DNA of 64,000 nucleotides from assembly GCA_947457935.1 (NCBI GenBank), contig CANGXP010000005.1, positions 2,511-66,510 on the forward strand, read 5' to 3'. Positions 15,622 to 35,586 of this stretch are shown here, in pieces. The notes below the pieces were generated by a model. It searched no databases, was not told where the DNA came from, and saw only the letters and a program-made list of their open reading frames with translations. The stretch is from Alphaproteobacteria bacterium. GTDB lineage: Bacteria > Pseudomonadota > Alphaproteobacteria > JAJTHO01 > CANGXP01. Positions within the stretch are counted from its first letter, which is position 1; the number at the start of each line of letters is the position of its first letter. Position numbers and translations under genes: made by a program.

Positions 15622-16124
15622 TTGACCTGAAACGCTTGTTTTGCAACGCTTTCAGCCGATTTTTTATCGAAAAATAAAATTGCAAGTCACTGATATATAA
15701 TAATATTTTTTGTAAGTAGTAGTGTACGAAAAAATAATAATTTTGCAGGATGACCTGAAAGGTGCTTTTTTCCTTGTTCTTAGCCGATTTTCTGCAAAAA
15801 TTATTATCGCTAAGCCATTGACAAATAATATTATTCTCTGCGATGTGTTTTGTAAGAAAAATACCTTGTTATGCAAAATGGCTTGAAAGCCGCCTTTTTC
15901 CTTGCTTTCAGCCGATAATGTGTAAAAAGCCACATACGCAACACATTGATAAACAACATTATTTTTTAATTGCACTCGCTATAAAAAATATTTCCGTCAT
16001 CAAGTTGCCTTAAGAAGGGCTTTTTTCTTGCCTTTCAGCCGATTTTCCCACCTCAATTTTTGCGTTTTTCATCAACACAAGTACTGTTGCGGAAGTGCCT
16101 ACAGTTTGCTACCGTGTGCGGATT
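15622..16124 (+). repeat. Tandem array of four degenerate ~127-bp direct repeats upstream of glyQS
   Basis: Units start at 15622, 15751, 15879 and 16005. Each begins TTGACCTGAAAG/TGGCTTGAAAGC/TTGCCTTAAGAAGG followed by a T-rich stretch and CTTTCAGCCGAT. Units 1-3 also share an internal ATTGA(C/T)AAA(T/C)AA(T/C)ATTATT segment. Confidence 0.6.
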
Positions 16125-19100
16125 ATGACACAGCCCCTCTCGTTCCAAAACATCATTCTCACCCTCCAGAAATTCTGGGGAAACCAAGGCTGTGCCTTGC
16201 TTCAGCCATATGATGTGGAGATGGGCGCGGGCACCTTTCACCCCGCAACAACCCTAAGATCTTTGGGCGAACAGCCGTGGCGCGCTGCCTATCCCCAACC
16301 CTGCCGCCGCCCTACCGATGGCCGCTATGGCGAGAACCCTAACCGCCTTCAGCACTACTATCAGTTCCAAGTTATCATAAAACCCTCGCCTGCCAACATC
16401 CAAGAATTGTATCTAGAAAGCCTGAAAGCCTTAGGAATAGACATTTCTAAGCACGATATTCGGTTTGTGGAAGACGATTGGGAAAGTCCTACTTTGGGGG
16501 CAGCGGGTCTTGGTTGGGAGGTGTGGTGCGATGGCATGGAAGTCACGCAATTCACCTATTTCCAGCAGGTTGGCGGCTTTGATTGCGCGCCCGTTTCTGC
16601 CGAGATTACCTACGGATTAGAACGCCTTGCCATGTATATTCAAGGCGTGGAGAATGTGTATGATTTGATTTACGTTGAAGGGGATAGGCACGAGGCACGA
16701 GGCACGAGGGAAGAAATGATTTCCTCTTCTCGCGCCTCGTGCCTCGAGCCTCTTACCTATGGAAACGTCTTCCTCCGCAACGAACAAGAATTTTCCGCCT
16801 ATAATTTTGAGCACGCAACCACCGAAAAGTTATTCCAACACTTTGCTGATGCCGAGCTAGAATGCCAGCACTTGCTCGCACAAAACCTTGCCCTGCCTGC
16901 CTACGACCAGTGCATCAAAGCCAGTCATACCTTTAATTTGCTGGATGCACGGCGGGTGATTAGTGTTTCCGAACGCGCCAGCTACATCGGGCGGGTACGC
17001 GCTCTTGCCAAGGGATGTTGCGAGGCATGGCTTGCGAAAGCGGCAGCAAGCAACAATCTTCAAGGTGCAGCACAAGAAAAAACTTTCTCCAATCCCCAAA
17101 CTCCAAACCTGAAAACCGAAAACAGCTTTTTATTGGAACTCCTTACCGAAGAAATCCCCGCACGGATGCAGCAAGCGGCACGGGCAGATTTATTACGGCT
17201 ATTCACGCAAAAGCTGGAAAAGCGCGGTATTACAGGGTTTAACGCAACAAGTTGTGTCACGCCACGCCGCCTTGCGTTGTTGGTGGAGGGCTTACCTGCC
17301 GCACAACCCGCCACCACGGAGGAACGGAAGGGCCCCAAAGTGGGCGCACCACAACAGGCGTTGGATGGCTTCTTGCGGAGTGCGGGTATTGAGGCAAGTA
17401 CGCTAAAACCTGTTCACAATCTCGCTAGACTGCAAGCGAAAATTGATGTTCCCGAGAACCAGCGCGCAGTGTATCCTTCATACATGAGCACTGGAAGCGC
17501 AGAGAACATCAATTTGCAGCAAGGTATAGTAGAGAGTGGGGATAGGTTTTTAGAACAGCGTGATGACGGCAAAGGCAACCTCTATTATTACGCGACGTTA
17601 CGCACGCCAGAAACCCCGCTTTCTGGGGTTCTTCCCGTTGTTATCAGTGAAATTTTGCTAGAATTTGCATGGGCAAAATCCATGCGTTGGGGCAATGGCG
17701 CGTTCCGTTGGGTGCGTCCGTTGCAAAATATTTTGGCGGTGCTGAATGGCGTACCGCTCGCGGGCGGCTTTGACCTTGGCAATCATCTTGAGAACTACCC
17801 TGCTGGCTATGTGACCGAATGGCATAGCGGGCAAACTGTGTTGGTGTTTAATAACACAACGGTGGGGCATCGCGTTCATGCGCCTGAAGCATTGCAAATC
17901 AACACGCCGCAAGAATATTTGAGCGCACTGCGTAATGCCTCTGTTGAGCCATGCGTTGAGGCACGCAAAAAGAAAATTATTGAGCACGCAACATTGCTTG
18001 CACCCAAGGGTTTAACCATTGATTTTAATGAGAAATTATTGGAAGAAGTGGCGGGCTTAAATGAGCATCCCGTGCCGTTATTGGGGCAAATTGACGCGAA
18101 ATTTATGACCGTGCCGCCTGAAATTCTCACCACAAGCATGGCGAGTCACCAGCGGTATTTCGCGTGTTATGATGCCGCTGGCACACTCCAGCCCTATTTT
18201 ATCGCGGTTGCCAACCAAAACAGTGATGATGCGGGTCTCGCCATTATTCAAGGCAATGAAAAAGTGCTCCGCGCCCGCCTGTTTGACGCGGCGTTTTTCT
18301 GGGAAAACGATAAAAAGCAAGCTGTTGAACGGGGTATGGAGAGCTTCCTTGAGCCGCTGAAGAACGTGGTGTTTCATCAGGGTTTGGGGACGGTGTATGA
18401 CAAGGCGATGCGGATTGCTGCCCTTGCTATGTCCTTCGCTGACGTTGTAGGGGGCGATGCATCTCACATACACAAGGCAGCCCTCCTTGCCAAAGCAGAC
18501 CTTTCCAGCGGGGTTGTGGGGGAGTTCCCCGAATTACAGGGGATTATGGGGAGTTATCTAGCAACGGCAGCGGGGCTAGATAAAAATATCGCTCTTGCTA
18601 TTCGTAAGCATTATCAGCCGATTGGTGATAGCCCTGTGCCTGCCAACCCTGTGAGTGTGGCGATTGCCTTAGCCGATAAAATGGACACGCTGGTGGCGTT
18701 TTTTGCGATTGGCGAAAAGCCTACGGGTTCAAAAGACCCGTTCGCGTTGCGCCGTGCCGCGATTGGCATTATTCGGTTGATTGTGGAAAATAAACTTCCT
18801 TTAAGCATTAAAAATTTAGTTCTGTGGGGATGCATTGAGTTTCAGCATCAGCATATAAAACCAATAGATGGCAGCGTTGTAGACGATTTAACAAACTTCC
18901 TTAAAGATCGCTTCGTGGTCTACCTCCGCGATACCCACACTCTCCGCCCCGACATCATTCACGCTGTTTTGGCTGCACAACCACAGTTTGGTGACCTTGT
19001 TGCCCATAAACAGGCGATTGAGCAAACACAAGCGTTTCTTGCTTTGAACCCGAATGCGCCTGCCTTAGTGGCGGGGTATAAACGGGCGGTGAATATCCTA

Positions 19101-19406
19101 AACATTGAAGAGAAGAAAGATAAACGCCGCTATGACGGCATTGTTGACGCGGCATTGCTGCAAGACGCTGCGGAAAAGGCATTGGATGCAGCGTTAAACG
19201 CTGTGACCACAGCGCTTGCAACAACAGCGGACTACACCGCAATGCTGGAGCAACTCGCAACCCTGCGCCCCGCCATTGACGCGTTTTTCACCGAGGTGTT
19301 GGTGAATAGCGAGGATGTGAGCGTGCGGGAAAATCGCTTGTTTATGTTGCACTCGTTCCGCGCACTCGTGCAGCGCGTGGCGGATTTTGGCGGGGTGGAG
19401 GGGTAA
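16125..19406 (+). CDS. glyQS: Fused glycyl-tRNA synthetase alpha+beta subunits
   Basis: The N-terminal ~300 aa align to GlyQ ([36 protein letters not shown]). After a short linker the sequence continues as GlyS ([16 protein letters not shown] ... [16 protein letters not shown]). It is a single uninterrupted ORF. Confidence 0.9.
16688..16751. repeat. Imperfect ~64-bp palindrome embedded in-frame in the glyQ portion
   Basis: GGCACGAGGCACGAGGCACGAGGGAAGAAA-tgatttc-CTCTTCTCGCGCCTCGTGCCTCGAGCC. It encodes about 18 extra residues ([18 protein letters not shown]) relative to E. coli GlyQ between VYDL and YG(D/N)VF. Confidence 0.6.
17400..17550 (+). mobile_element. Decayed in-frame copy of the 129-bp palindromic element inside the glyS portion
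   Basis: CAGCGCGCAGTGTATCCTTCATACATGAGCA...AATTTGCAGCAAGGTATAGTAGAGAGTGGGGAT aligns to the element core (CAGCGGCGCGAAGTGTACCTCTTCGTACATGAGAGA...AGTTTGCAGGCATGGGTAATTTTAAAGTGGAATG). GlyS is about 43 aa longer than E. coli GlyS at exactly this position. Confidence 0.45.
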
Positions 19407-20795: not shown

Positions 20796-22214
20796 CTATT
20801 CCCGCCGCAACGTATACACCTGTAAGCCATCCATCACCTCGCCATCCAGCGGCACACAGTCTCGCACATGGTCTTCATGCAGCGCCGCAATAGTTGATTC
20901 GAGGAGAATAATCGGGGCTTGGTGCTTTTTGCTCACGGGTTGCAGTTTGGCGGCTTGGTTCACGGCATCACCAATCACGGTATAATCCATTCGTTCGGGT
21001 GCACCAATATTGCCCGAAACAACAGTGCCGCTGGCCATACAAATGCCGATTCTAAGCGGCATGTTTATCTCTTGCCCCAGTGACTCCACCCGTTCTAAGA
21101 TGCGTTTAGCGGAAATGAGGGCGTTGTCCGCATCTTGCCCGCTGCTATAGGGCACACCGAATACGGCAAGCACGCCATCGCCCATAAATTTATCAATAAT
21201 CCCGTCATTACCCCGCACTATACGCACAATTTCTGTGAAATATAAATTCAAGATACGCACTGTCTCGCTTGCGCCTAATTGCCGCGTTAGCCCTGTGAAC
21301 CCGCGAATATCCGCAAATAAAATGGTCGCTTCCTGCTCAACACCGCCTAAACTGTTGGCATTTTCTGAGAGCATTTTATCCGCCACACCTCTGGGGAGAT
21401 AGCGCGAAAGCGTGATGCGTGACCGCCACAAGTCTGCATTGTTAAAGGCGGTTGAGGCAATAGTGGCGAGGGTTGCAACGCGTTGCAAATAAATGGTATC
21501 GAACGTGAAATCAGGCTGTAGGGACACGAGAAACAGGCATAAGCCGCTATCTACATGCAAGGGATAGCATAAGGAGGCGTGCCACGGCTCTGCCTCTTGT
21601 TGCTGGTTTAAAATGCGGGGTTTATCGGGGAGTATAATTTCTACCTGCTCCCCTGCTTGAAAGATGCCCGCACCTGCTAACACTGTTCCATCCCGCTGTA
21701 GCAACGCCACGCCATCCATGGCAGCAAAATAATTGATGAGTGTTTCCGCAATGTCTTTGTTATCAACCTGCCCAATAAACGCTTGCGCTGCTTTTAATAC
21801 CACCGCGCTTTCACGATATTGTGTGAGCATTTCCGTTGAAAGCTGCTGGCGCACTTGGTCTTGCGCCCAAATGTGCTGCAAGGTGCTGCCCACCAACGCA
21901 ACAAGCGCATCGAGTGCAGGCGAGAATTCTGCCGTTGCAAAGCACACTTCTAAGGATAGGTGTTGTTCCGCGTTAATCGGATAGGCAACACGATGCGCCA
22001 TGGGGAGGAACTTAGCCTCAGGGTATTGATAAATAACAATATCTCCATCTTGCACGCGGAATGTCACTTTATTATCGGCCGCATTGGCAGCAAGCAGCCA
22101 AAACTCCTCCTCCGCTAAGCGGCGACACAGTTTATACAACCGATGGACAAGGGTGCTTTTATGACGCACGGCGCAGCTCCTGTCTTGCCAGCGCGAGCAC
22201 TTTATCGGGGTCAA
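20796..22214 (-). CDS. Class III adenylate/guanylate cyclase with N-terminal GAF-like sensor region
   Basis: The C-terminal domain carries ILFADIRGFTGLT ... DKFMGDGVLAVFG ... PLRIGICMASGTVVSGNIG, a canonical class III cyclase catalytic core. The preceding ~280 aa are GAF-like. The annotated ATG overlaps the receiver gene by 56 nt, so the true start may be internal. Confidence 0.75.
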   Translation of the reverse strand: MTPIKCSRWQDRSCAVRHKSTLVHRLYKLCRRLAEEEFWLLAANAADNKVTFRVQDGDIVIYQYPEAKFLPMAHRVAYPINAEQHLSLEVCFATAEFSPALDALVALVGSTLQHIWAQDQVRQQLSTEMLTQYRESAVVLKAAQAFIGQVDNKDIAETLINYFAAMDGVALLQRDGTVLAGAGIFQAGEQVEIILPDKPRILNQQQEAEPWHASLCYPLHVDSGLCLFLVSLQPDFTFDTIYLQRVATLATIASTAFNNADLWRSRITLSRYLPRGVADKMLSENANSLGGVEQEATILFADIRGFTGLTRQLGASETVRILNLYFTEIVRIVRGNDGIIDKFMGDGVLAVFGVPYSSGQDADNALISAKRILERVESLGQEINMPLRIGICMASGTVVSGNIGAPERMDYTVIGDAVNQAAKLQPVSKKHQAPIILLESTIAALHEDHVRDCVPLDGEVMDGLQVYTLRRE

Positions 22215-22545
22215 ACGGCTTATTCAGATAAAAATGTGCGCCTGCCTCTACACTTGTTTGGTGCGCACTTTCTTCCCCGCGAGCAGTGAGAATTGCCACA
22301 ATGGTGTGCTGTAGATAGGGATTCTTACGAATGGCGGCGCACACTTCAAACCCTGATAAACGAGGCATCATCACATCGAGAAATACAAAATCAGGTGCAA
22401 TAATTTCTGCTAACTCCAAGCCCTCTTGCCCATCACTGGCGGTGACAATCCGCACGCCCTCCTCTTCCAACGGCTCAAGCGTTTGCTCCAGCAAAGCGCG
22501 GATGTATGCTTCATCTTCAACAATGAGAATGGTTTTAGGACTCAT
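22159..22545 (-). CDS. Single-domain response regulator (CheY-like receiver)
   Basis: 128 aa with IVEDEAYIR, the phospho-acceptor context FLDVMMP, and the conserved T/K (ILTARG...NKPF). No output domain. Confidence 0.85.
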   Translation of the reverse strand: MSPKTILIVEDEAYIRALLEQTLEPLEEEGVRIVTASDGQEGLELAEIIAPDFVFLDVMMPRLSGFEVCAAIRKNPYLQHTIVAILTARGEESAHQTSVEAGAHFYLNKPFDPDKVLALARQELRRAS

Positions 22546-24488
22546 GCTGTAGTCTCATTACATATGGTGTCATTAAGGGGTAAGGTGATGGTGAAGGTTG
22601 TGCCTTGCCCGAATACAGAATCAAGCGTTATCGTGCCTTTATAATGTTCCACAATTTGCCGCGAAATAGCAAGCCCCAGCCCTGTTCCTTTGGGCTTATT
22701 TTTCAGATTATCCTCATTAATACTGGCTTGCTGAAAACGCTTGAAAATTTTGTCAAAATCTTCCTCGCGAATACCCATGCCTGTATCCGTAATAGAACAA
22801 TACAGATGCGCTTCTGCAGCCCAACACTTTAATGTTACCGTGCCTGTATCCGTGAATTTTACCGCATTCACAAGAAGATTGATGAGCACTTGCTGGAGTC
22901 TATCGGGGTCAATCACAAGGGTGGGCAGTGTTTGGGGCAAATCGAGGACTAATTGCACTGTTGGTTTTTTGGCAAACTCTTCCGCTGTTGCTTGTTTCGT
23001 GAAGTGAATTACCTCTATGATATTCACCTGTTTGTCATTCCACGGCATTCTTCCTGCATCAATGCGTGCAACATCCAGCACATCATCAATCAGGCGATTG
23101 AGTCTATCTGTTTCTTTAATAATAATGTCCAAATTACTGATAATACGTTCACTTTTTTTATTAAGCCCCGCATAATTTTCCACAACAGGGGCGATGAAGC
23201 GGCTAAAGTCATCCGTAATGCGCCGTGAAAATCCATAGATAGTGGTGAGGGGCGTTTTCAATTCATGGGAAACCGACGAGACGAAATAATTTTTTGCTTG
23301 GGTTAATGCCAGCAATTTTTCATTGTTTTCTGCGGCAGCTTGCAAAGATTGCGATAACTGTTGCACCCCTTTATTAATTTCAACGATTTCTTCTAAGTTT
23401 CCTTCCGTACGCAACTGCGCACCAACAAACTGGTGTGTTGCAATACTTCGTAATGCACGGGCAGCTTTAACAATAGGTTGCACGACCTTCAGGCGAATCG
23501 TTAAACCCAACAGCAGAAAACCCGCTGCAAGCATGGAGAAAGCAACTTGGGTTTTTTTTAGGGTACTTTCTGCATTATTAGCGATTTTTGTTGCCCCCTC
23601 ACTCGCAAGTTGCGAGGCATTACTGGTGATGTCTCCCGCTATGAACGCAAGTGTTTCATTGATTGTTTTGAGGCGCACGGGTTTATTGGCTATTAATCTT
23701 AATACTTCACGTTGAATAACAAACAAAGAAGATAATTTCTTGTATTCAATAATTATTTTTCGTATTTCTTGGCGTTTTTCCCATGCAGGTAAATTATCAA
23801 CAAGTGCAACAGCAACTTCCAACAACCCATTGAAAAAACTTTCTTCATTGTATGTCTCTGCTAATGTTGCTGTTTCCTTTAAACTTGATAACCGTAGGCG
23901 CAACGATAAGAGCACATTTTTAAGTTGCGAGGCATAGAGGTACTCTTGCAGTGCATCTGCATCAGATTTTTTTGCTTGCTGCATTTTCTCTGACTTTTCT
24001 AGAATTAACTTCGTTAGCACTGTGTTCGCTTGATAGAGTGAGAGATCTGCGCCCCGCACCTTATTCAAAATTTCCGTTCTGTTTTTTTGAATAGCATCCT
24101 TCTCCTCTTTCAGGAGGCTAATTTCCTTAAAAACACTGTCAAAACCCTTTTGCATGAGAGGGGGGGTGTTTTCTTTGAGTGTTTCTGTCAAGGCGAGTGC
24201 CTTTAGCAAGGCTTCATCCCTTGCCTTAACTGTATCTGATTCCGACATGATATTACTAAACAAACCAAGCTGACGTACCTGTAATGCTTTTTCGTGTTGC
24301 TTTAATGCCTCAGGAATAATATCGGTGCGGGTTTTTTGTGCAAGCTGTGTAAGATTTTGTAAATCCAACGCAATAATCATCGACACGGCAATAATGAACA
24401 AGAAGGCAAGTGCCGTCACCCCGTAGGCAAGGTTTTTCAAACTTAAAGGGGGAGCTTTGCGCTCTGTCTCTTCAAAACTTTGTATCAT
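22542..24488 (-). CDS. Sensor histidine kinase with large periplasmic helical sensor domain
   Basis: Two TM segments flank a roughly 280-aa helical extracytoplasmic region. HisKA H-box (SSVSHELKTPLTTI) and HATPase_c motifs (GTGLGLAISRQIVE ... GQGTTFTITLP). AT-rich gene. Confidence 0.85.
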   Translation of the reverse strand: MIQSFEETERKAPPLSLKNLAYGVTALAFLFIIAVSMIIALDLQNLTQLAQKTRTDIIPEALKQHEKALQVRQLGLFSNIMSESDTVKARDEALLKALALTETLKENTPPLMQKGFDSVFKEISLLKEEKDAIQKNRTEILNKVRGADLSLYQANTVLTKLILEKSEKMQQAKKSDADALQEYLYASQLKNVLLSLRLRLSSLKETATLAETYNEESFFNGLLEVAVALVDNLPAWEKRQEIRKIIIEYKKLSSLFVIQREVLRLIANKPVRLKTINETLAFIAGDITSNASQLASEGATKIANNAESTLKKTQVAFSMLAAGFLLLGLTIRLKVVQPIVKAARALRSIATHQFVGAQLRTEGNLEEIVEINKGVQQLSQSLQAAAENNEKLLALTQAKNYFVSSVSHELKTPLTTIYGFSRRITDDFSRFIAPVVENYAGLNKKSERIISNLDIIIKETDRLNRLIDDVLDVARIDAGRMPWNDKQVNIIEVIHFTKQATAEEFAKKPTVQLVLDLPQTLPTLVIDPDRLQQVLINLLVNAVKFTDTGTVTLKCWAAEAHLYCSITDTGMGIREEDFDKIFKRFQQASINEDNLKNKPKGTGLGLAISRQIVEHYKGTITLDSVFGQGTTFTITLPLNDTICNETTA

Positions 24489-25038: not shown

Positions 25039-25752
25039 ATGCTCAAAAAAATTCTCGCTGCCCTGTTACTCTGCACTGGCTTTTGTACGCTCCTTTTTTT
25101 GGGAACGTGGCAACTGCAACGCCTACACTGGAAAGAGGGCTTGATTGCCCAACAACAAACGGCACAACAAACAACACCGTTGTCGCTGGAAAAACTCGTG
25201 ACGTTACCTGAGGACGCACAGCGATTCCGCACCATTCGCCTTGAGGGGCAATTTTTGCCTGAAAAGCGGTTGCTATTGGGGATTCGTGCGTTTGAGGGGA
25301 AATCAGGCTATTATAGTGTTATCCCGTTTAAAATTAGCGATGGCGAGTTTAAGGGCACACATATTCTCGTTACGCTCGGCTGGCTGCCATTTGAAACAGC
25401 AAAAAATTGGCAACCACCTGAGATTTTCAACACTTCGGTAGAAATAACGGCTGTAACGCGTCCTGCCGTTGTGCCAACATGGCTGACGCCCACCAACAAA
25501 CCTGATAAGGGCGAGTGGTATAGCCTCTATATTCCAGAAATTGCCAGTTTTTATGGGTTAAAGCCGTTTTTGCCGTTTTCCGCGCAACTCACGCAACCGT
25601 TGGAAGACATTACCCAACAAATGCCGCTGATTCTGCCACAACAACTTGAGTTAACTAACAACCACCTGCAATATGCAATAACGTGGTACACATCGGCAGG
25701 CATTATGATAATCATGACTTTTTTCTTGGTAAGACGTTCGAATGCTCGCTAA
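25039..25752 (+). CDS. SURF1-family cytochrome oxidase assembly protein
   Basis: N-terminal TM with GTWQLQRLHWKEGLI. C-terminal TM with LQYAITWYTSAG. Confidence 0.8.
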   Translation: MLKKILAALLLCTGFCTLLFLGTWQLQRLHWKEGLIAQQQTAQQTTPLSLEKLVTLPEDAQRFRTIRLEGQFLPEKRLLLGIRAFEGKSGYYSVIPFKISDGEFKGTHILVTLGWLPFETAKNWQPPEIFNTSVEITAVTRPAVVPTWLTPTNKPDKGEWYSLYIPEIASFYGLKPFLPFSAQLTQPLEDITQQMPLILPQQLELTNNHLQYAITWYTSAGIMIIMTFFLVRRSNAR

Positions 25753-26503
25753 AATCCGCTATCTTTACACAAGCCACGACCGCAAAGCACAACAATTTCG
25801 CTATGTGTTGCTTGCGTTGGATGCCTTAAGCATCGCGTTTTTTATTATTTCTTCTTTTTATTTCGGGCATCCGCTTGTTGAAAATATTGACAAGATTTTG
25901 GGCGCGTACATTGCGCTAGACCTTGCAGCGCGTTTTGTTGCCGAGGGGTGCGAGCGACGGTTTTTCCTCAGAATTTTCACTATTCTTGATATTCTTGTGA
26001 TTATTTCTTGTTTCGCCCCCCAAGAGGGGCATTATCTTGCTTTTCTGCGCGCTTTTGCCATTACGCGCCTGTTTCGCTCTTATTGCGTGCTGCATCGGCT
26101 CCGCAACGATGTGCCGTATTTTAAGAAGAACGAGGATACTGTTGTTAATGCTATCAACCTGATAATTTTTATTTTTGTGATGACGGAGATTGTGCTGCAA
26201 ACACAAATCGGCAGAAACCCGCATATCAATCACTTTATTGATGCACTCTATTTCACCATCACCACCCTCACCACCACGGGCTTTGGTGATATTACGTTGC
26301 AAGGAACGGATGGGCGGGTGCTGGCGATCATTACCATGATTTGCGGGGTTACCTTATTTTTACGGCTCATTCGCAGTTTAATCCGCCCGAATAAAGTGTA
26401 TTTCCCCTGCTCTTCTTGCGGATTATATTTGCATGACCGCGACGCGGTGCATTGCAAACATTGCGGGATTACGCTAAATATTCCTGATGAAGGACACGTA
26501 TAA
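25742..26503 (+). CDS. Voltage-sensor-type K+ channel homologue with C-terminal zinc ribbon
   Basis: S4-like helix with Arg every third residue (LAFLRAFAITRLFRSYCVLHRLR). Pore helix and selectivity filter TLTTTGFGD. C-terminal CSSC...CKHC ribbon. The start overlaps the SURF1 stop by 11 nt. Confidence 0.65.
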   Translation: MLAKIRYLYTSHDRKAQQFRYVLLALDALSIAFFIISSFYFGHPLVENIDKILGAYIALDLAARFVAEGCERRFFLRIFTILDILVIISCFAPQEGHYLAFLRAFAITRLFRSYCVLHRLRNDVPYFKKNEDTVVNAINLIIFIFVMTEIVLQTQIGRNPHINHFIDALYFTITTLTTTGFGDITLQGTDGRVLAIITMICGVTLFLRLIRSLIRPNKVYFPCSSCGLYLHDRDAVHCKHCGITLNIPDEGHV

Positions 26504-26584
26504 AAACCTTGTTCTCTCGTATCATCCGCTCTATATGATTTTGTGCATTGCGTGGTGCGTGCGCTCTTATAATGCAGTATCCAT

Positions 26585-27442
26585 ATGAAAATTAAAAGTT
26601 TTTGCTTTTTTGCATTGTTGTTTGTGGTGGCGATGCAAGCCGTTGCTGTTGCCGCTGTGCCACAGCCGTGGGGTATAAATTTTCAACCCTCCGCCTCTCC
26701 TGTGCAGGAAGAAATTCATAAGTTTCACAATCTGTTATTGTGGATTATCGTTCCTATTGTTTTATTCGTTACGGGACTATTGCTCTATGTGATGCTGCGC
26801 TTTAATGCGAAACGCAATCCCGTTGCCTCCAAAACCTCGCACAACACGCTGATTGAAATTATCTGGACTGCGATTCCTGTGTTGATTTTGGTGGTGATTG
26901 CCGTCCCATCTTTCCGTTTACTGTATTTTGAAGGCAAAGTTGTTGACCCTGAAATGACCGTAAAGGTAACAGGGCATCAATGGTATTGGCAGTATACCTA
27001 CCCCGATCATGGCGATATTGATTTTGATTCGAACATGATTGCGGACAAAGATTTAAAACCAGAACAGTGGTCAAACCGCTTGCTGGAAGTAGATAACCAG
27101 ATGGTTGTGCCCGTTGATACTAACATTCGGATTATCAGCACCGCAGCGGATGTGTTGCACAGTTGGGCTGTTCCCTCACTCGGTGTGAAAAAAGACAGCG
27201 TACCTGGTCGCCTCAATGAAACATGGTTTAAAGCCTCCAAAGAAGGGGTTTATTACGGTCAATGCTCAGAAATTTGCGGTGTGGGGCATGGATTTATGCC
27301 CATTGCTGTTAACGTTGTTTCGAAAGACGCTTTTACCGCATGGGTGAAAGCAAAGGGTGGCACCATGGAGAAGAAAGTTACTGTTGTGCCTGTTGATACA
27401 AAGGCTGAGAAAACGGCAGTTGCTACCCCTGCGCAAAAATAA
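26585..27442 (+). CDS. coxB: Cytochrome c oxidase subunit II
   Basis: Signal/TM region, CuA centre motif (HSWAVPSLGVKKD ... CSEICGVGHGFM). Confidence 0.95.
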   Translation: MKIKSFCFFALLFVVAMQAVAVAAVPQPWGINFQPSASPVQEEIHKFHNLLLWIIVPIVLFVTGLLLYVMLRFNAKRNPVASKTSHNTLIEIIWTAIPVLILVVIAVPSFRLLYFEGKVVDPEMTVKVTGHQWYWQYTYPDHGDIDFDSNMIADKDLKPEQWSNRLLEVDNQMVVPVDTNIRIISTAADVLHSWAVPSLGVKKDSVPGRLNETWFKASKEGVYYGQCSEICGVGHGFMPIAVNVVSKDAFTAWVKAKGGTMEKKVTVVPVDTKAEKTAVATPAQK

Positions 27443-29083
<1,641 letters not shown>

Positions 29084-29090
29084 GACAACA

Positions 29091-29122
29091 AAAGCCTCTT
29101 ATGAAAATAAGAGGCTTTTTTG
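29091..29122 (+). terminator. Rho-independent terminator after coxA
   Basis: AAGCCTCTTA-tgaaaa-TAAGAGGCTT followed by TTTTTT. Confidence 0.6.
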
Positions 29123-29176
29123 TGGGGTGCCACAAACACCCTCTTGACAAAACTACTGGATAGCAGTATATATTAT

Positions 29177-29482
29177 ATGTCTGATGATATTCTTTTCGAG
29201 TGGGATGCACAAAAGGCTCTCAGCAATTTGCAAAAGCATGGTGTGTCTTTTGAATTTGCGATGGGTGCATTTTGTGACCACTTTGCCGTTGAAATACAGG
29301 ATAATCGGGTTGATTATGGCGAGCGGCGCATTAACCGACTGGGGTTATGGGATGGTGTCATCTTGCATGTAACATATACGCAGCGTGAAGAAAAAATCCG
29401 CCTTATTTCCGCCAGAAGGGCAGCACAGCATGAACGAGACTATTATTACAGCCAGAATGCAGCAGAACGGCACGATTATTAA
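29177..29482 (+). CDS. brnT: BrnT-family (DUF497) ribonuclease toxin
   Basis: MSDDILFEWDAQKALSNLQKHGVSFEFA ... VILHVTYTQREEKIRLISARRA is the characteristic DUF497/BrnT sequence. Confidence 0.7.
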   Translation: MSDDILFEWDAQKALSNLQKHGVSFEFAMGAFCDHFAVEIQDNRVDYGERRINRLGLWDGVILHVTYTQREEKIRLISARRAAQHERDYYYSQNAAERHDY

Positions 29483-29813
29483 CTATGCAGCAAACGGGGA
29501 GGCAATGCCCTTTTTTGTGCCGCCCCTTCGAGAAATGACAGAGGCAGACATTATTGCTGCTGCAAAAAGTGATGCGGATGCACAGCCGTGGACACAAGAA
29601 GCTTTAGAAGCTGCGCCAAAAATTTCCCGCCTTGCACAATTGCGCCGCAACCTCCATCTTACCCAAGAAGGATTTTCGTCGCGCTATCGCATTCCGCTTG
29701 GCACGCTGCGCGATTGGGAGCAAGGACGCAGCATCCCTGACCAAACAGCGCGGGCGTATTTAACCGCGATTGCCGCTGCCCCTGAGGTGATTGCAACAGC
29801 GTTGCAGGGGTGA
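29430..29813 (+). CDS. brnA: BrnA-type HTH antitoxin
   Basis: Overlaps the 3' end of brnT. C-terminal HTH (LRRNLHLTQEGFSSRYRIPLGTLRDWEQGRSIP). The start is uncertain, with an alternative at 29385. Confidence 0.55.
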   Translation: MNETIITARMQQNGTIINYAANGEAMPFFVPPLREMTEADIIAAAKSDADAQPWTQEALEAAPKISRLAQLRRNLHLTQEGFSSRYRIPLGTLRDWEQGRSIPDQTARAYLTAIAAAPEVIATALQG

Positions 29814-35315: not shown

Positions 35316-35586
35316 TATAGGTCTTTACCGATACAAAAAATGTAGCCACACCTGCCGTTGAGTGATTGATTCCACAGACCCTATATAATAGGTGGGTGCC
35401 AGATGATAAAAACCACGGTTCTTACCAGCGCCAGATCCCTGTGAAATCGTATGGACCGAGGAATGACAAAACCCTATCGCACAGGGCAGCTACATCAGAC
35501 ACTATACAACAAACCGCCGCCCAATACAACTTTGCATTAGGGCTGTTTTTCTGCTATGGTTAATGTTCACATTAGGGAGAAACGTC

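What the first reader, a model, noticed from the sequence alone, without database searches (positions are those of the whole stretch)
25039..26503. Voltage-sensor-type K+ channel with Zn ribbon nested in the SURF1-coxB-coxA cluster
The ORF has an S4-like helix with arginines at every third position and a TTTGFGD selectivity filter. It also has a C-terminal CxxC...CxxC ribbon. Its start overlaps the SURF1 stop by 11 nt, so it is likely co-translated with cytochrome oxidase assembly and structural genes. A K+ channel inside a cox operon is not a standard arrangement. It may couple respiration to membrane-potential homeostasis.
Basis: partly seen in the sequence, partly recalled or inferred. Interest (0 to 1): 0.55.

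Follow-up and report, generated by a model that had tools for sequence, protein, structure and literature searches.

The report
Zinc-ribbon K+ channel inserted beside cox genes
The gene is a real, selectively maintained voltage-sensor-type potassium channel with a zinc-ribbon tail from a large unstudied alphaproteobacterial family, but its place between SURF1 and coxB is a recent, gene-sized insertion in this one lineage and not a conserved link to respiration.

Summary
The sequence observations hold. ORF 25742-26503 (253 aa) has six predicted transmembrane helices, an S4 with arginines in i+3 register (R103, R109, R112; position 106 is Ala), a TTTGFGD filter and a C-terminal CxxC-x11-CxxC ribbon. 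Its ATG overlaps the SURF1 stop by 11 nt. The stated coordinates also include SURF1 (25039-25752).

The protein belongs to a large alphaproteobacterial family of about 255 aa. The filter and all four cysteines are invariant in that family. I found no paper describing it.

The link to cox genes is not a family property. None of 160 loci of 45-54% relatives has a cox or cco gene within 8-10 kb. The nearest organismal relatives have SURF1 followed directly by coxB (116-nt spacer, no channel), or have SURF1 and coxBA apart. Alignments bound an insertion of about 0.8 kb (about 25738-26520) that leaves a conserved coxB-proximal element intact.

The gene is under purifying selection (dN/dS 0.09).

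One 60% relative ends a ccoNOQP-ccoGHIS cluster. That makes 2 of 6 contexts in the closest subclade oxidase-linked, which is a weak, post hoc hint.

Verdict: a real channel with an uncharacterised architecture. Coupling to respiration is unsupported.

The parts
25039..25752 (+). SURF1 (aa3 oxidase assembly factor), 237 aa. Its last 3-4 codons differ from those of relatives that lack the channel.
   Evidence: Pfam SURF1 6.9e-39. It is 93% identical to L081, 83% to L175 and 79% to L173. The C-terminal junction is shown in A3.
25742..26503 (+). Channel ORF, 253 aa: a 6TM voltage-sensor domain plus K+ pore plus C-terminal zinc ribbon.
   Evidence: Pfam Ion_trans and Ion_trans_2 above their cut-offs. 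AF2 model with pLDDT 84 and pTM 0.70, showing S1-S6 and a pore helix. A family profile hits KCNQ2 at 1e-15 and KvAP at 4e-14. dN/dS 0.09 against L081.
25742..25752 (+). 11-nt overlap between the channel start and the SURF1 stop (ATGCTCGCTAA).
   Evidence: The same overlap is present in L081-L083.
25738..26520 (+). Lineage-specific inserted segment of about 0.8 kb, essentially only the channel ORF. Boundaries are accurate to about +/-15 nt.
   Evidence: A3 and A4 aligned against L175, L176, L173 and L179. L175/L176 have SURF1, 116 nt, then coxB.
26039..26110 (+). S4 helix (residues 100-123): R103, A106, R109, R112, then R119 and R121.
   Evidence: AF2 helix 100-123. The register aligns with KCNQ2 S4 (R198, R201, Q204, R207).
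26270..26290 (+). Selectivity filter TTTGFGD (residues 177-183).
   Evidence: Invariant or nearly invariant in A2. The filter is TTTGFGD in 164 of 172 loci and TTTGYGD in 6.
26390..26485 (+). C-terminal Cys4 zinc ribbon (residues 217-248; C223, C226, C238, C241). It begins 3 residues after S6.
   Evidence: Pfam Zn_ribbon_3 scores 26.0 bits for the isolated segment (cut-off 27) and 28.2 bits for a relative. The cysteine pattern is CCCC in 172 of 172 loci. The AF2 model has beta strands at 218-220 and 230-232 with block pLDDT 78-87.
26529..26584 (+). Conserved coxB-proximal non-coding element. It includes an invariant 24-mer, GTGCATTGCGTGGTGCGTGCGCTC (26543-26566), and was retained when the channel was inserted.
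   Evidence: A4 shows it identical in four lineages, although dS between the two closest lineages is 0.5-0.65. No Rfam family matches it.
26585..27442 (+). coxB (cytochrome c oxidase subunit II).
   Evidence: Pfam COX2_TM and COX2.
27461..29083 (+). coxA (cytochrome c oxidase subunit I).
   Evidence: Pfam COX1 1.1e-166.
29090..29119 (.). Palindromic terminator-like hairpin just after coxA. It is the likely end of the transcription unit.
   Evidence: Scan: 13-pair stem with A/T-rich arms.

Best explanation
ORF 25742-26503 encodes a functional member of a widespread but experimentally uncharacterised alphaproteobacterial family of compact K+ channels of about 255 aa.

Anatomy. The protein has a four-helix voltage-sensor domain (S1-S4). 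The S4 arginines are in Kv register, and D60 and R64 in S2 and D83 in S3 are conserved. A very short S4-S5 linker follows, then a K+ pore (S5, pore helix, TTTGFGD filter, S6). A cytoplasmic Cys4 zinc ribbon is attached 3 residues after S6.

Inferred mechanism. The protein assembles as a tetramer with non-domain-swapped sensors, as KvAP and Slo do. It conducts K+ under control of membrane voltage. The four ribbons sit directly below the S6 gate, most likely as a Zn-stabilised structural or assembly module. A regulatory role (redox or metal sensing) is possible but unshown.

Genomic history (shown). In this lineage only, a gene-sized segment of about 0.8 kb carrying the channel was inserted between SURF1 and the conserved coxB upstream element. 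Its ATG now overlaps the SURF1 stop by 11 nt, so it is probably translated by ribosomes finishing SURF1. It has since been kept under purifying selection.

The neighbourhood of cox genes is therefore a recent local accident, or at most a lineage-specific adaptation, and not a property of the channel family. The physiological role is most likely general K+ and membrane-potential homeostasis.
For: Channel identity:
- Pfam Ion_trans and Ion_trans_2 score above their cut-offs.
- A family profile hits KCNQ2 at 1e-15 and KvAP at 4e-14 over S1-S6. S2 (D, R), S3 (D) and the S4 arginines align in register.
- The AF2 model has pLDDT 84 with six TM helices, a pore helix and ribbon strands.
- Hydropathy and charge distribution fit an N-in/C-in 6TM topology.
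- By Foldseek, TM-score is 0.60-0.63 to Slo1/Slo2 but only 0.31-0.40 to Kv1/KCNQ. This fits a non-swapped arrangement with a 5-residue S4-S5 linker. KvAP is non-swapped (PMC6882556).

Family:
- 7484 hits in all; the top 120 are 48-60% identical, about 255 aa long, and come from Methylobacterium, Rhodopseudomonas, Bradyrhizobium, roseobacters and others.
- The filter and the four cysteines are invariant.
- The ribbon is present in 50 of 68 full-length 50%-cluster representatives, down to about 30% identity.

Insertion:
- L081-83 (channel 91% identical) share the arrangement.
- L175/176 have SURF1, 116 nt, then coxB.
- L173 and L177-179 have no channel near either gene.
- Pairwise identities place L175 nearer to the window than L173/L179 is. 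The channel-less state, with its shared 117-nt coxB leader, is therefore ancestral.
- No channel homologue between 60% and 91% identity exists in the 5.8-billion-protein set, although SURF1 homologues at 80-83% do.

Selection: dN/dS is 0.090 for the channel, 0.074 for SURF1 and 0.075 for CoxB.

No family-wide linkage: 0 of 160 loci carry SURF1, cox or cco genes within 8-10 kb, and no neighbour is conserved.
Against: - No electrophysiology exists for any family member. K+ selectivity, voltage dependence and its polarity, tetramer state and Zn binding are all inferred.
- The window protein lacks the second S4 arginine (A106), which could weaken or shift voltage sensing.
- Insertion versus deletion is polarised only by three lineages with short contigs and by identity-based branching.
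- The channel's base composition and codon usage match its neighbours. No target-site repeats or mobile-element scars flank it. The insertion mechanism and the donor are therefore unknown.
- Two of six independent contexts in the nearest (R2-less) subclade adjoin terminal-oxidase biogenesis genes. That is more than a rough random-placement expectation.
Confidence: 0.75

Rival explanations
1. Functional coupling to terminal oxidases. The channel is co-expressed with aa3 oxidase assembly and structural genes and acts as a K+ valve. It collapses excess membrane potential into delta-pH, or relieves back-pressure on the proton-pumping oxidase.
For: - The 11-nt overlap with SURF1 and the lack of a terminator before coxB.
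- The arrangement is kept under purifying selection across dS of about 0.65.
- An independent second case: the 60% relative P0003 lies 8 nt after ccoS, at the end of ccoNOQP-ccoGHIS.
- Two of six contexts in the R2-less subclade are oxidase-linked.
- Precedents for K+ channels tuning energised membranes exist, for example SynK in cyanobacteria (PMC2853561). Mitochondrial BK-COX links are known to me from memory only.
Against: - 0 of 160 other family loci are oxidase-linked.
- The closest organismal relatives run SURF1-coxB, or separated genes, without any channel.
- coxB retains its own invariant upstream element.
- Pooled over 168 contexts, 2 hits against a rough expectation of 0.3-0.5 is not significant. 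This is my own estimate, and the subclade was chosen post hoc.
Confidence: 0.15
2. The channel was ancestrally present between SURF1 and coxB in this group and was cleanly deleted in the L175 and L173/L179 lineages. On this view it was not inserted in the window lineage.
For: - The region is rearrangement-prone, with REP-like hairpins and a heptamer microsatellite in L173, L175 and L179.
- There is no compositional anomaly and there are no insertion scars.
Against: - It requires two independent losses, or an unsupported topology.
- L175 and L179 share a 117-nt coxB leader and a common SURF1 C-terminus (AGVLVVMGIVGVR) that the window lineage lacks.
- No intermediate-identity channel is on record.
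Confidence: 0.12
3. The zinc ribbon is a sensor and not just a scaffold. Oxidation of the Cys4 site, or metal loading at the conserved His/Asp residues (H231, D234, H237), would be transmitted through the 3-residue link to S6. K+ flux would then respond to redox or metal status. This adds to any of the other readings and does not exclude them.
For: - The ribbon starts 3 residues after S6 (R215-P216 invariant).
- H231 and D234 are invariant and H237 is nearly so, in addition to the four cysteines.
- Cys4 zinc sites act as redox switches in other proteins (general knowledge: Hsp33, RsrA).
Against: There is no direct evidence. Small zinc ribbons are most often purely structural. The monomer model cannot show inter-subunit contacts.
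Confidence: 0.2
4. The ORF is a decaying or non-functional hitch-hiker.
For: Loss of the second S4 arginine. Recent arrival at the locus.
Against: dN/dS is 0.09 at dS 0.65. The ORF is full length in all copies. Every family-invariant residue is retained.
Confidence: 0.03

Closest known systems
KvAP (Aeropyrum pernix voltage-gated K+ channel; PDB 1ORQ, 2A0L, 6UWM)
   Same: A compact prokaryotic 6TM channel made of a voltage-sensor domain and a K+ pore. The family profile aligns over S1-S6 at E = 4e-14. It has a short S4-S5 linker and a predicted non-domain-swapped arrangement (PMC6882556).
   Different: Sequence similarity is low. The filter is TTTGFGD, whereas as I recall KvAP has TVGYGD. The loops are much shorter. 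The C-terminal Cys4 zinc ribbon is absent from KvAP. The window protein has Ala at the second S4 charge position.
MVP (Methanocaldococcus hyperpolarisation-activated Kv; NCBIfam NF040645)
   Same: It is the best-scoring NCBIfam model, matching residues 23-201 at 1.2e-17. It is also a minimal 6TM channel without large cytoplasmic domains.
   Different: The score of 64 bits is far below the equivalog cut-off of 300. There is no evidence on gating polarity. MVP has no zinc ribbon.
Eukaryotic Kv7/KCNQ and Kv1/Shaker channels
   Same: They are the top PDB sequence and Foldseek hits by E-value. The S2 and S3 countercharges and the S4 register are shared.
   Different: Those channels are domain-swapped with a long S4-S5 helix (TM-score only 0.31-0.40) and have large cytoplasmic domains. 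The zinc in the T1 domains of Kv2-4 is N-terminal and inter-subunit (from memory), which is unrelated to this C-terminal ribbon.
Slo1/Slo2 pore-gate domain
   Same: It is the best global superposition of the monomer model (TMq 0.60-0.63, rmsd 4.4-5.6 A), reflecting non-swapped packing of the sensor on the pore.
   Different: Slo channels carry an S0 helix and an RCK gating ring. Sequence identity is only 15-17%.
Canonical alphaproteobacterial aa3 oxidase cluster (coxB-coxA-ctaB-x-coxC-DUF983-SURF1)
   Same: The window has SURF1, coxB and coxA on one strand.
   Different: In the canonical cluster (L174) SURF1 is last and there is no channel. Here SURF1 precedes coxB, and ctaB, coxC and ctaG are not adjacent. 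The channel is present only in the window lineage.
SynK (Synechocystis thylakoid/plasma-membrane K+ channel)
   Same: It is a functional analogue for the coupling idea: a prokaryotic 6TM K+ channel located in an energy-transducing membrane (PMC2853561).
   Different: No specific relation to SynK was tested here. No data place the present channel in such a role.

Membership tests
6TM voltage-gated-like K+ channel (Pfam Ion_trans PF00520 / Ion_trans_2 PF07885) | Match to the family HMMs above the curated cut-off | tested here: met
   Ion_trans 49.7 bits (cut-off 25). Ion_trans_2 56.8 bits (cut-off 22.5).
6TM voltage-gated-like K+ channel | K+ signature filter T-x-x-T-x-G-[YF]-G-D after a pore helix | tested here: met
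   TLTTTGFGD at residues 175-183. T177-T179, G180, G182 and D183 are invariant. The pore helix is at 165-176 in the model.
6TM voltage-gated-like K+ channel | S4 with basic residues every third position, in register with Kv S4 | tested here: met
   R103, R109 and R112 are in register, with A106 in between. The family consensus is R-xx-R-xx-R-xx-R and aligns with KCNQ2 R198/R201/Q204/R207.
6TM voltage-gated-like K+ channel | Conserved acidic countercharges in S2 and S3 (charge-transfer centre) | tested here: met
   D60 and R64 in S2 and D83 in S3 are at least 90% conserved and align with the KCNQ2 E/R and D positions. The aromatic cap position is Y56/I57 and is not a clear Phe.
6TM voltage-gated-like K+ channel | Six TM helices, N- and C-termini cytoplasmic | tested here: met
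   AF2 helices at 14-37, 44-67, 72-91, 100-123, 131-155 and 188-214. Hydropathy peaks and K+R distribution agree. A Cys4 zinc site implies a cytoplasmic C-terminus (inference).
6TM voltage-gated-like K+ channel | Tetrameric, K+-selective, voltage-dependent conductance | not testable with these tools
   Needs reconstitution and electrophysiology. No paper on this family was found.
MVP-type hyperpolarisation-activated channel (NCBIfam NF040645, equivalog) | Score at or above the equivalog cut-off | tested here: not met
   64.4 bits against a cut-off of 300.
E. coli Kch type (NCBIfam NF007828; 6TM + RCK) | Score at or above the cut-off, and a C-terminal RCK/TrkA domain | tested here: not met
   39.3 bits against a cut-off of 425. 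Only the pore region matches and there is no RCK domain.
Zinc ribbon (Pfam Zn_ribbon_3 PF13248) | Two CxxC knuckles separated by a short beta hairpin, with an HMM score at or above the cut-off | tested here: inconclusive
   The window scores 21.6 bits (whole protein) and 26.0 bits (isolated tail) against a cut-off of 27. A relative's tail scores 28.2 bits. The motif is CxxC-x11-CxxC, with cysteines in 172 of 172 loci. The model has strands at 218-220 and 230-232. Zn binding itself is not testable here.
Conserved component of cytochrome oxidase (cox/cco) gene clusters | Recurrent adjacency to oxidase structural or assembly genes across relatives | tested here: not met
   0 of 160 loci. Absent from the SURF1-coxB junction of the nearest relatives. 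Only the window lineage and one cbb3-linked relative show it.

The most novel reading that the evidence does not exclude
The R2-less subclade of zinc-ribbon Kv-like channels (the window lineage, P0003 and others) may be a respiration-associated K+ valve. It would be recruited repeatedly to terminal-oxidase biogenesis operons (aa3: SURF1-coxBA; cbb3: ccoGHIS). Its Cys4/His ribbon under the S6 gate would sense redox or metal status. K+ flux would then trim membrane potential when the proton-pumping oxidases are being built or are running.
Probability: 0.12. Interest if true: 0.65.

Novelty: new variant of a known kind. Interest (0 to 1): 0.36.

Why it matters
Physiological roles of bacterial voltage-sensor K+ channels are still largely unknown. 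This analysis defines a large, tightly conserved alphaproteobacterial family, present in cultivable Methylobacterium, Rhodopseudomonas palustris, Bradyrhizobium and roseobacters. Its architecture has not been described in the papers I could search: a minimal Kv-like core with a Cys4 zinc ribbon fused 3 residues after the inner gate helix. At about 255 aa, with very short loops and a predicted non-swapped sensor, it is an attractive small model for structure and gating studies.

The cox-operon placement that drew attention turns out to be a recent single-gene insertion. It should not be used to infer a respiration-coupled function. It does give a clean natural example of an ORF-sized insertion that became translationally coupled to the upstream gene while the downstream gene's regulatory element was preserved.

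Tried and rejected
- An NJ tree with midpoint rooting placed the long-branched window sequence unreliably. I used the shared loss of the second S4 arginine to define the nearest subclade instead.
- The metagenome scan with the single protein was swamped by the generic ribbon pattern DAVHCKHC. It returned only 44-53% relatives, so it added contexts but no close relatives.
- I looked for target-site duplications and inverted repeats around the insertion and found only short chance matches.
- GC, GC3 and codon-usage divergence of the channel match its neighbours. There is no compositional sign of foreign origin.
- The IMG/VR scan gave only 5 hits, all at contig ends, so the gene is not phage-borne. 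One relative (L172) does lie beside an integrase/primase island.
- Rfam at gathering thresholds found nothing at the conserved coxB leader.
- The promoter and terminator scans gave no more sites than shuffled sequence and no terminator between the channel and coxB.
- Literature searches for a zinc-ribbon K+ channel, or for a K+ channel in cox operons, found nothing relevant. The 2005 survey of microbial K+ channels does not mention zinc or cysteine.
- Weak tail matches to zf-Mss51 and DUF983 (E = 0.01-0.05) were dismissed as generic CxxC similarity.
The host is inferred only to be an uncultured alphaproteobacterium. Its CoxB is 60-65% identical to Azospirillaceae and Rhodospirillales sequences, and its SURF1 about 35% to Stellaceae.
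Full report
**1. What is at the coordinates**

The stated range 25039-26503 holds two same-strand ORFs. SURF1 occupies 25039-25752 (237 aa; Pfam SURF1 6.9e-39). A 253-aa ORF occupies 25742-26503.

The second ORF's ATG lies 11 nt before the end of the SURF1 stop codon (…cgaATGctcgcTAAaatc…). No earlier in-frame start exists. Later candidates would remove nearly invariant N-terminal residues. The 11-nt overlap is therefore real. It recurs in the 91%-identical relatives L081-L083.

Downstream come an 81-nt spacer, coxB (26585-27442), coxA (27461-29083) and a palindromic terminator-like hairpin (29090-29119). No terminator-like site separates the channel from coxB. The promoter scan found no more sites than shuffled sequence.

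**2. The protein is a voltage-sensor-type K+ channel with a zinc ribbon**

- Pfam Ion_trans (49.7 bits) and Ion_trans_2 (56.8 bits) pass their cut-offs.
- A profile of 121 homologues hits KCNQ2 (1e-15), KvAP (4e-14, over S1-S6), Shaker and Kv1.2 in the PDB.
- In the printed KCNQ2 alignment, S2 D60/R64, S3 D83 and the S4 arginines fall on the Kv positions: R103, position 106, R109 and R112 correspond to KCNQ2 R198, R201, Q204 and R207.
- The AlphaFold2 model (pLDDT 84, pTM 0.70) has helices 14-37, 44-67, 72-91, 100-123, 131-155 and 188-214. The pore helix is at 165-176 and the S4-S5 linker is only 5 residues (125-129). Two short strands lie in the C-terminal 35 residues.
- Hydropathy and the distribution of Lys and Arg fit a 6TM N-in/C-in topology.
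- The filter is TTTGFGD (residues 177-183). The ribbon is C223-xx-C226-x11-C238-xx-C241 and starts three residues after S6.

The window protein has R103, A106, R109 and R112. Most of the family (100 of 121) has Arg at 106.

By Foldseek the best E-values go to Kv1.3, Kv1.2 and KCNQ. Those global TM-scores are only 0.31-0.40, against 0.60-0.63 for Slo1 and Slo2. With the 5-residue linker, this points to a non-domain-swapped sensor, as established for KvAP (PMC6882556). This step is an inference from a monomer model.

The nearest NCBIfam models, MVP-type and Kch-type, score far below their cut-offs. The protein is not an equivalog of either.

**3. The family**

The protein search returned 7484 hits. 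The top 120 are about 255 aa long and 48-60% identical. The named ones are from Alphaproteobacteria.

They occur in Methylobacterium, Rhodopseudomonas palustris, Bradyrhizobium, Microvirga, Roseomonas, many roseobacters and others.

Across 121 sequences the filter, R103, R109, R215-P216, the four cysteines, H231 and D234 are invariant. Across 172 loci the cysteine pattern is always CCCC, and the filter is TTTGFGD in 164.

An exhaustive search of 50%-identity representatives found 92 clusters at E <= 1e-30. Of the 68 full-length representatives, 50 carry the ribbon, down to about 30% identity.

The isolated tail scores 26.0 bits against Pfam Zn_ribbon_3 (cut-off 27). A relative's tail scores 28.2 bits.

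Databases call these proteins "voltage-gated potassium channel" or "ion transporter". I found no paper that describes a K+ channel with a zinc ribbon.

**4. The cox neighbourhood is recent and lineage-specific**

*(a) The family at large.* I examined 80 genome loci and 80 metagenome loci of 44-54% relatives, with 8-10 kb flanks where the contigs allowed. None has SURF1, coxA, coxB or ccoN/O/P/G/H/S nearby. The only cross-hits are unrelated P-type ATPases. No neighbour family recurs in more than about 10 of the 80 genome loci.

*(b) The organism's own relatives.*
- SURF1 homologues exist at 91%, 83% and 80% identity and then drop to 38% or less.
- The 83% lineage (L175, L176) has SURF1, a 116-nt spacer, then coxB, with no channel.
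- The 80% lineage keeps the same upstream genes (histidine kinase, response regulator, cyclase). Its SURF1 is followed by REP-like repeats (L173). Its coxB-coxA lie on other contigs from the same samples, with no channel in 1.17 kb upstream (L177-L179).
- A distant SURF1 (36%) sits in the canonical order coxB-coxA-ctaB-x-coxC-DUF983-SURF1.

*(c) The junctions.* Alignments show homology to the channel-less relatives ending at about 25737, in the last SURF1 codons. Homology resumes at about 26523, roughly 20 nt after the channel stop. The extra DNA is thus about 0.8 kb and essentially only the ORF.

*(d) Polarity.* Pairwise identities place L175 closer to the window than L173/L179 is. For SURF1 the values are 82.6% and 78.9%. 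For the CoxB N-terminus they are 87% and 78%. L175 and L179 share a 117-nt coxB leader and a SURF1 C-terminus that the window lineage lacks. The channel-less state is therefore most parsimoniously ancestral.

*(e) Absence of an intermediate homologue.* No channel homologue between 60% and 91% identity is on record, although SURF1 and CoxB of those lineages are.

**5. The gene is nevertheless functional and integrated**

Between the window and L081 (dS about 0.65), dN/dS is 0.090 for the channel. It is 0.074 for SURF1, 0.075 for CoxB and 0.02 for CoxA.

Composition and codon usage match the neighbours. No repeats or mobile-element scars flank the gene. The donor and the insertion mechanism remain unknown.

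The 56 nt before coxB include a 24-mer, GTGCATTGCGTGGTGCGTGCGCTC (26543-26566), that is identical in all four lineages. This suggests coxB keeps its own promoter, operator or leader. The channel is more securely tied to SURF1, through the overlapping stop and start, than to coxBA. Read-through into coxBA is possible but unshown.

**6. A residual hint**

The window protein belongs to a minority subclade, 21 of the 121 top hits, that has lost the second S4 arginine. Six independent contexts from this subclade were seen:
- the window lineage (SURF1-coxBA);
- P0003 (60% identical), 8 nt after ccoS at the end of ccoNOQP-ccoGHIS;
- P0004, beside pirin and sulfite reductase genes;
- P0013 and P0015, in unrelated contexts;
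- P0009, beside an integrase island.

All 160 scanned loci belong to the R2-bearing bulk.

My rough null assumes about 0.3% of gene slots adjoin an oxidase operon. Under it, 2 of 168 contexts is unremarkable (expected 0.3-0.5). Two of 6 would be unlikely, but the subclade was defined after the fact and the sample is tiny. I treat this as a lead and not as evidence.

**7. Most likely mechanism**

*Shown:* the domain anatomy, conservation, insertion history, overlap with SURF1 and purifying selection.

*Inferred:* a tetrameric, non-swapped, voltage-controlled K+ pore. Ribosomes terminating on SURF1 reinitiate at the overlapping ATG. The four cytoplasmic Cys4 ribbons, each tethered by three residues to S6, form a Zn-stabilised module under the gate. 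The extra invariant His and Asp residues leave room for a redox or metal-sensing role.

The physiological role is probably general K+ and membrane-potential homeostasis. Gating polarity cannot be read from sequence.

**8. Novelty and score**

The channel core is a known kind. The S6-fused zinc ribbon is an undescribed variant carried by a large, database-annotated but unstudied family. The cox nesting, which motivated the finding, is a lineage-specific insertion.

Interest is moderate to low for the stated hypothesis. It is moderate for the family as a compact structural model and for the weak oxidase link in the nearest subclade.

Noticed in passing
window 29120-29813: A BrnT/BrnA-type toxin-antitoxin pair (Pfam BrnT_toxin 1e-24; HTH antitoxin) lies between coxA and mdh. 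The 91% relative L081 goes from coxA to mdh with only a 154-nt gap. This is a second small lineage-specific insertion at the same locus.
   Followed up: partly
window 26529-26584 (24-mer at 26543-26566): A non-coding element just upstream of coxB includes GTGCATTGCGTGGTGCGTGCGCTC, identical in four lineages whose synonymous sites differ by dS 0.5-0.65. It contains a TGCAT…ATGCA inverted repeat. It is probably a coxB promoter, operator or leader. No Rfam family matches.
   Followed up: partly
L084 664-8768: A 60%-identical channel is the last gene, 8 nt after ccoS, of a complete ccoNOQP-ccoGHIS (cbb3 oxidase plus maturation) cluster in a JGI metagenome contig.
   Followed up: partly
L173 1805-2382; L175 1250-1366; L179 1-1172: In the channel-less relatives, the regions after SURF1 and before coxB are full of REP-like hairpins (GTCACCCCGTCTTCATGACGGGGT, three copies) and a (CCTAATG)n heptamer microsatellite. 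A roughly 100-nt segment upstream of SURF1 recurs inverted upstream of coxB. The region is a likely substrate for rearrangement.
   Followed up: no
window 16095-19406: A single 1103-aa ORF fuses the glycyl-tRNA synthetase alpha and beta subunits (Pfam tRNA-synt_2e, tRNA_synt_2f and DALR_1).
   Followed up: no
window 35339-35495 (-): 6S/SsrS RNA, 60.9 bits against a gathering score of 46.4. It is the only Rfam hit in the window.
   Followed up: no
window 20796-24488 (-): A divergent three-gene signalling unit lies upstream of SURF1: a histidine kinase (648 aa), a response regulator (128 aa) and a class III nucleotidyl cyclase with a weak GAF match (472 aa). It is conserved in the 80% relative's contig.
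   Followed up: no
L174 7640-8714: In a canonical alphaproteobacterial cox cluster, the small DUF983 gene overlaps the SURF1 start by 11 nt. This is the same overlap length as SURF1 and the channel have here. It is probably coincidence.
   Followed up: no
L172 182-7342: One R2-less family member lies next to an integrase, AlpA and D5-primase island. Only 5 family hits occur in IMG/VR, all at contig ends.
   Followed up: partly
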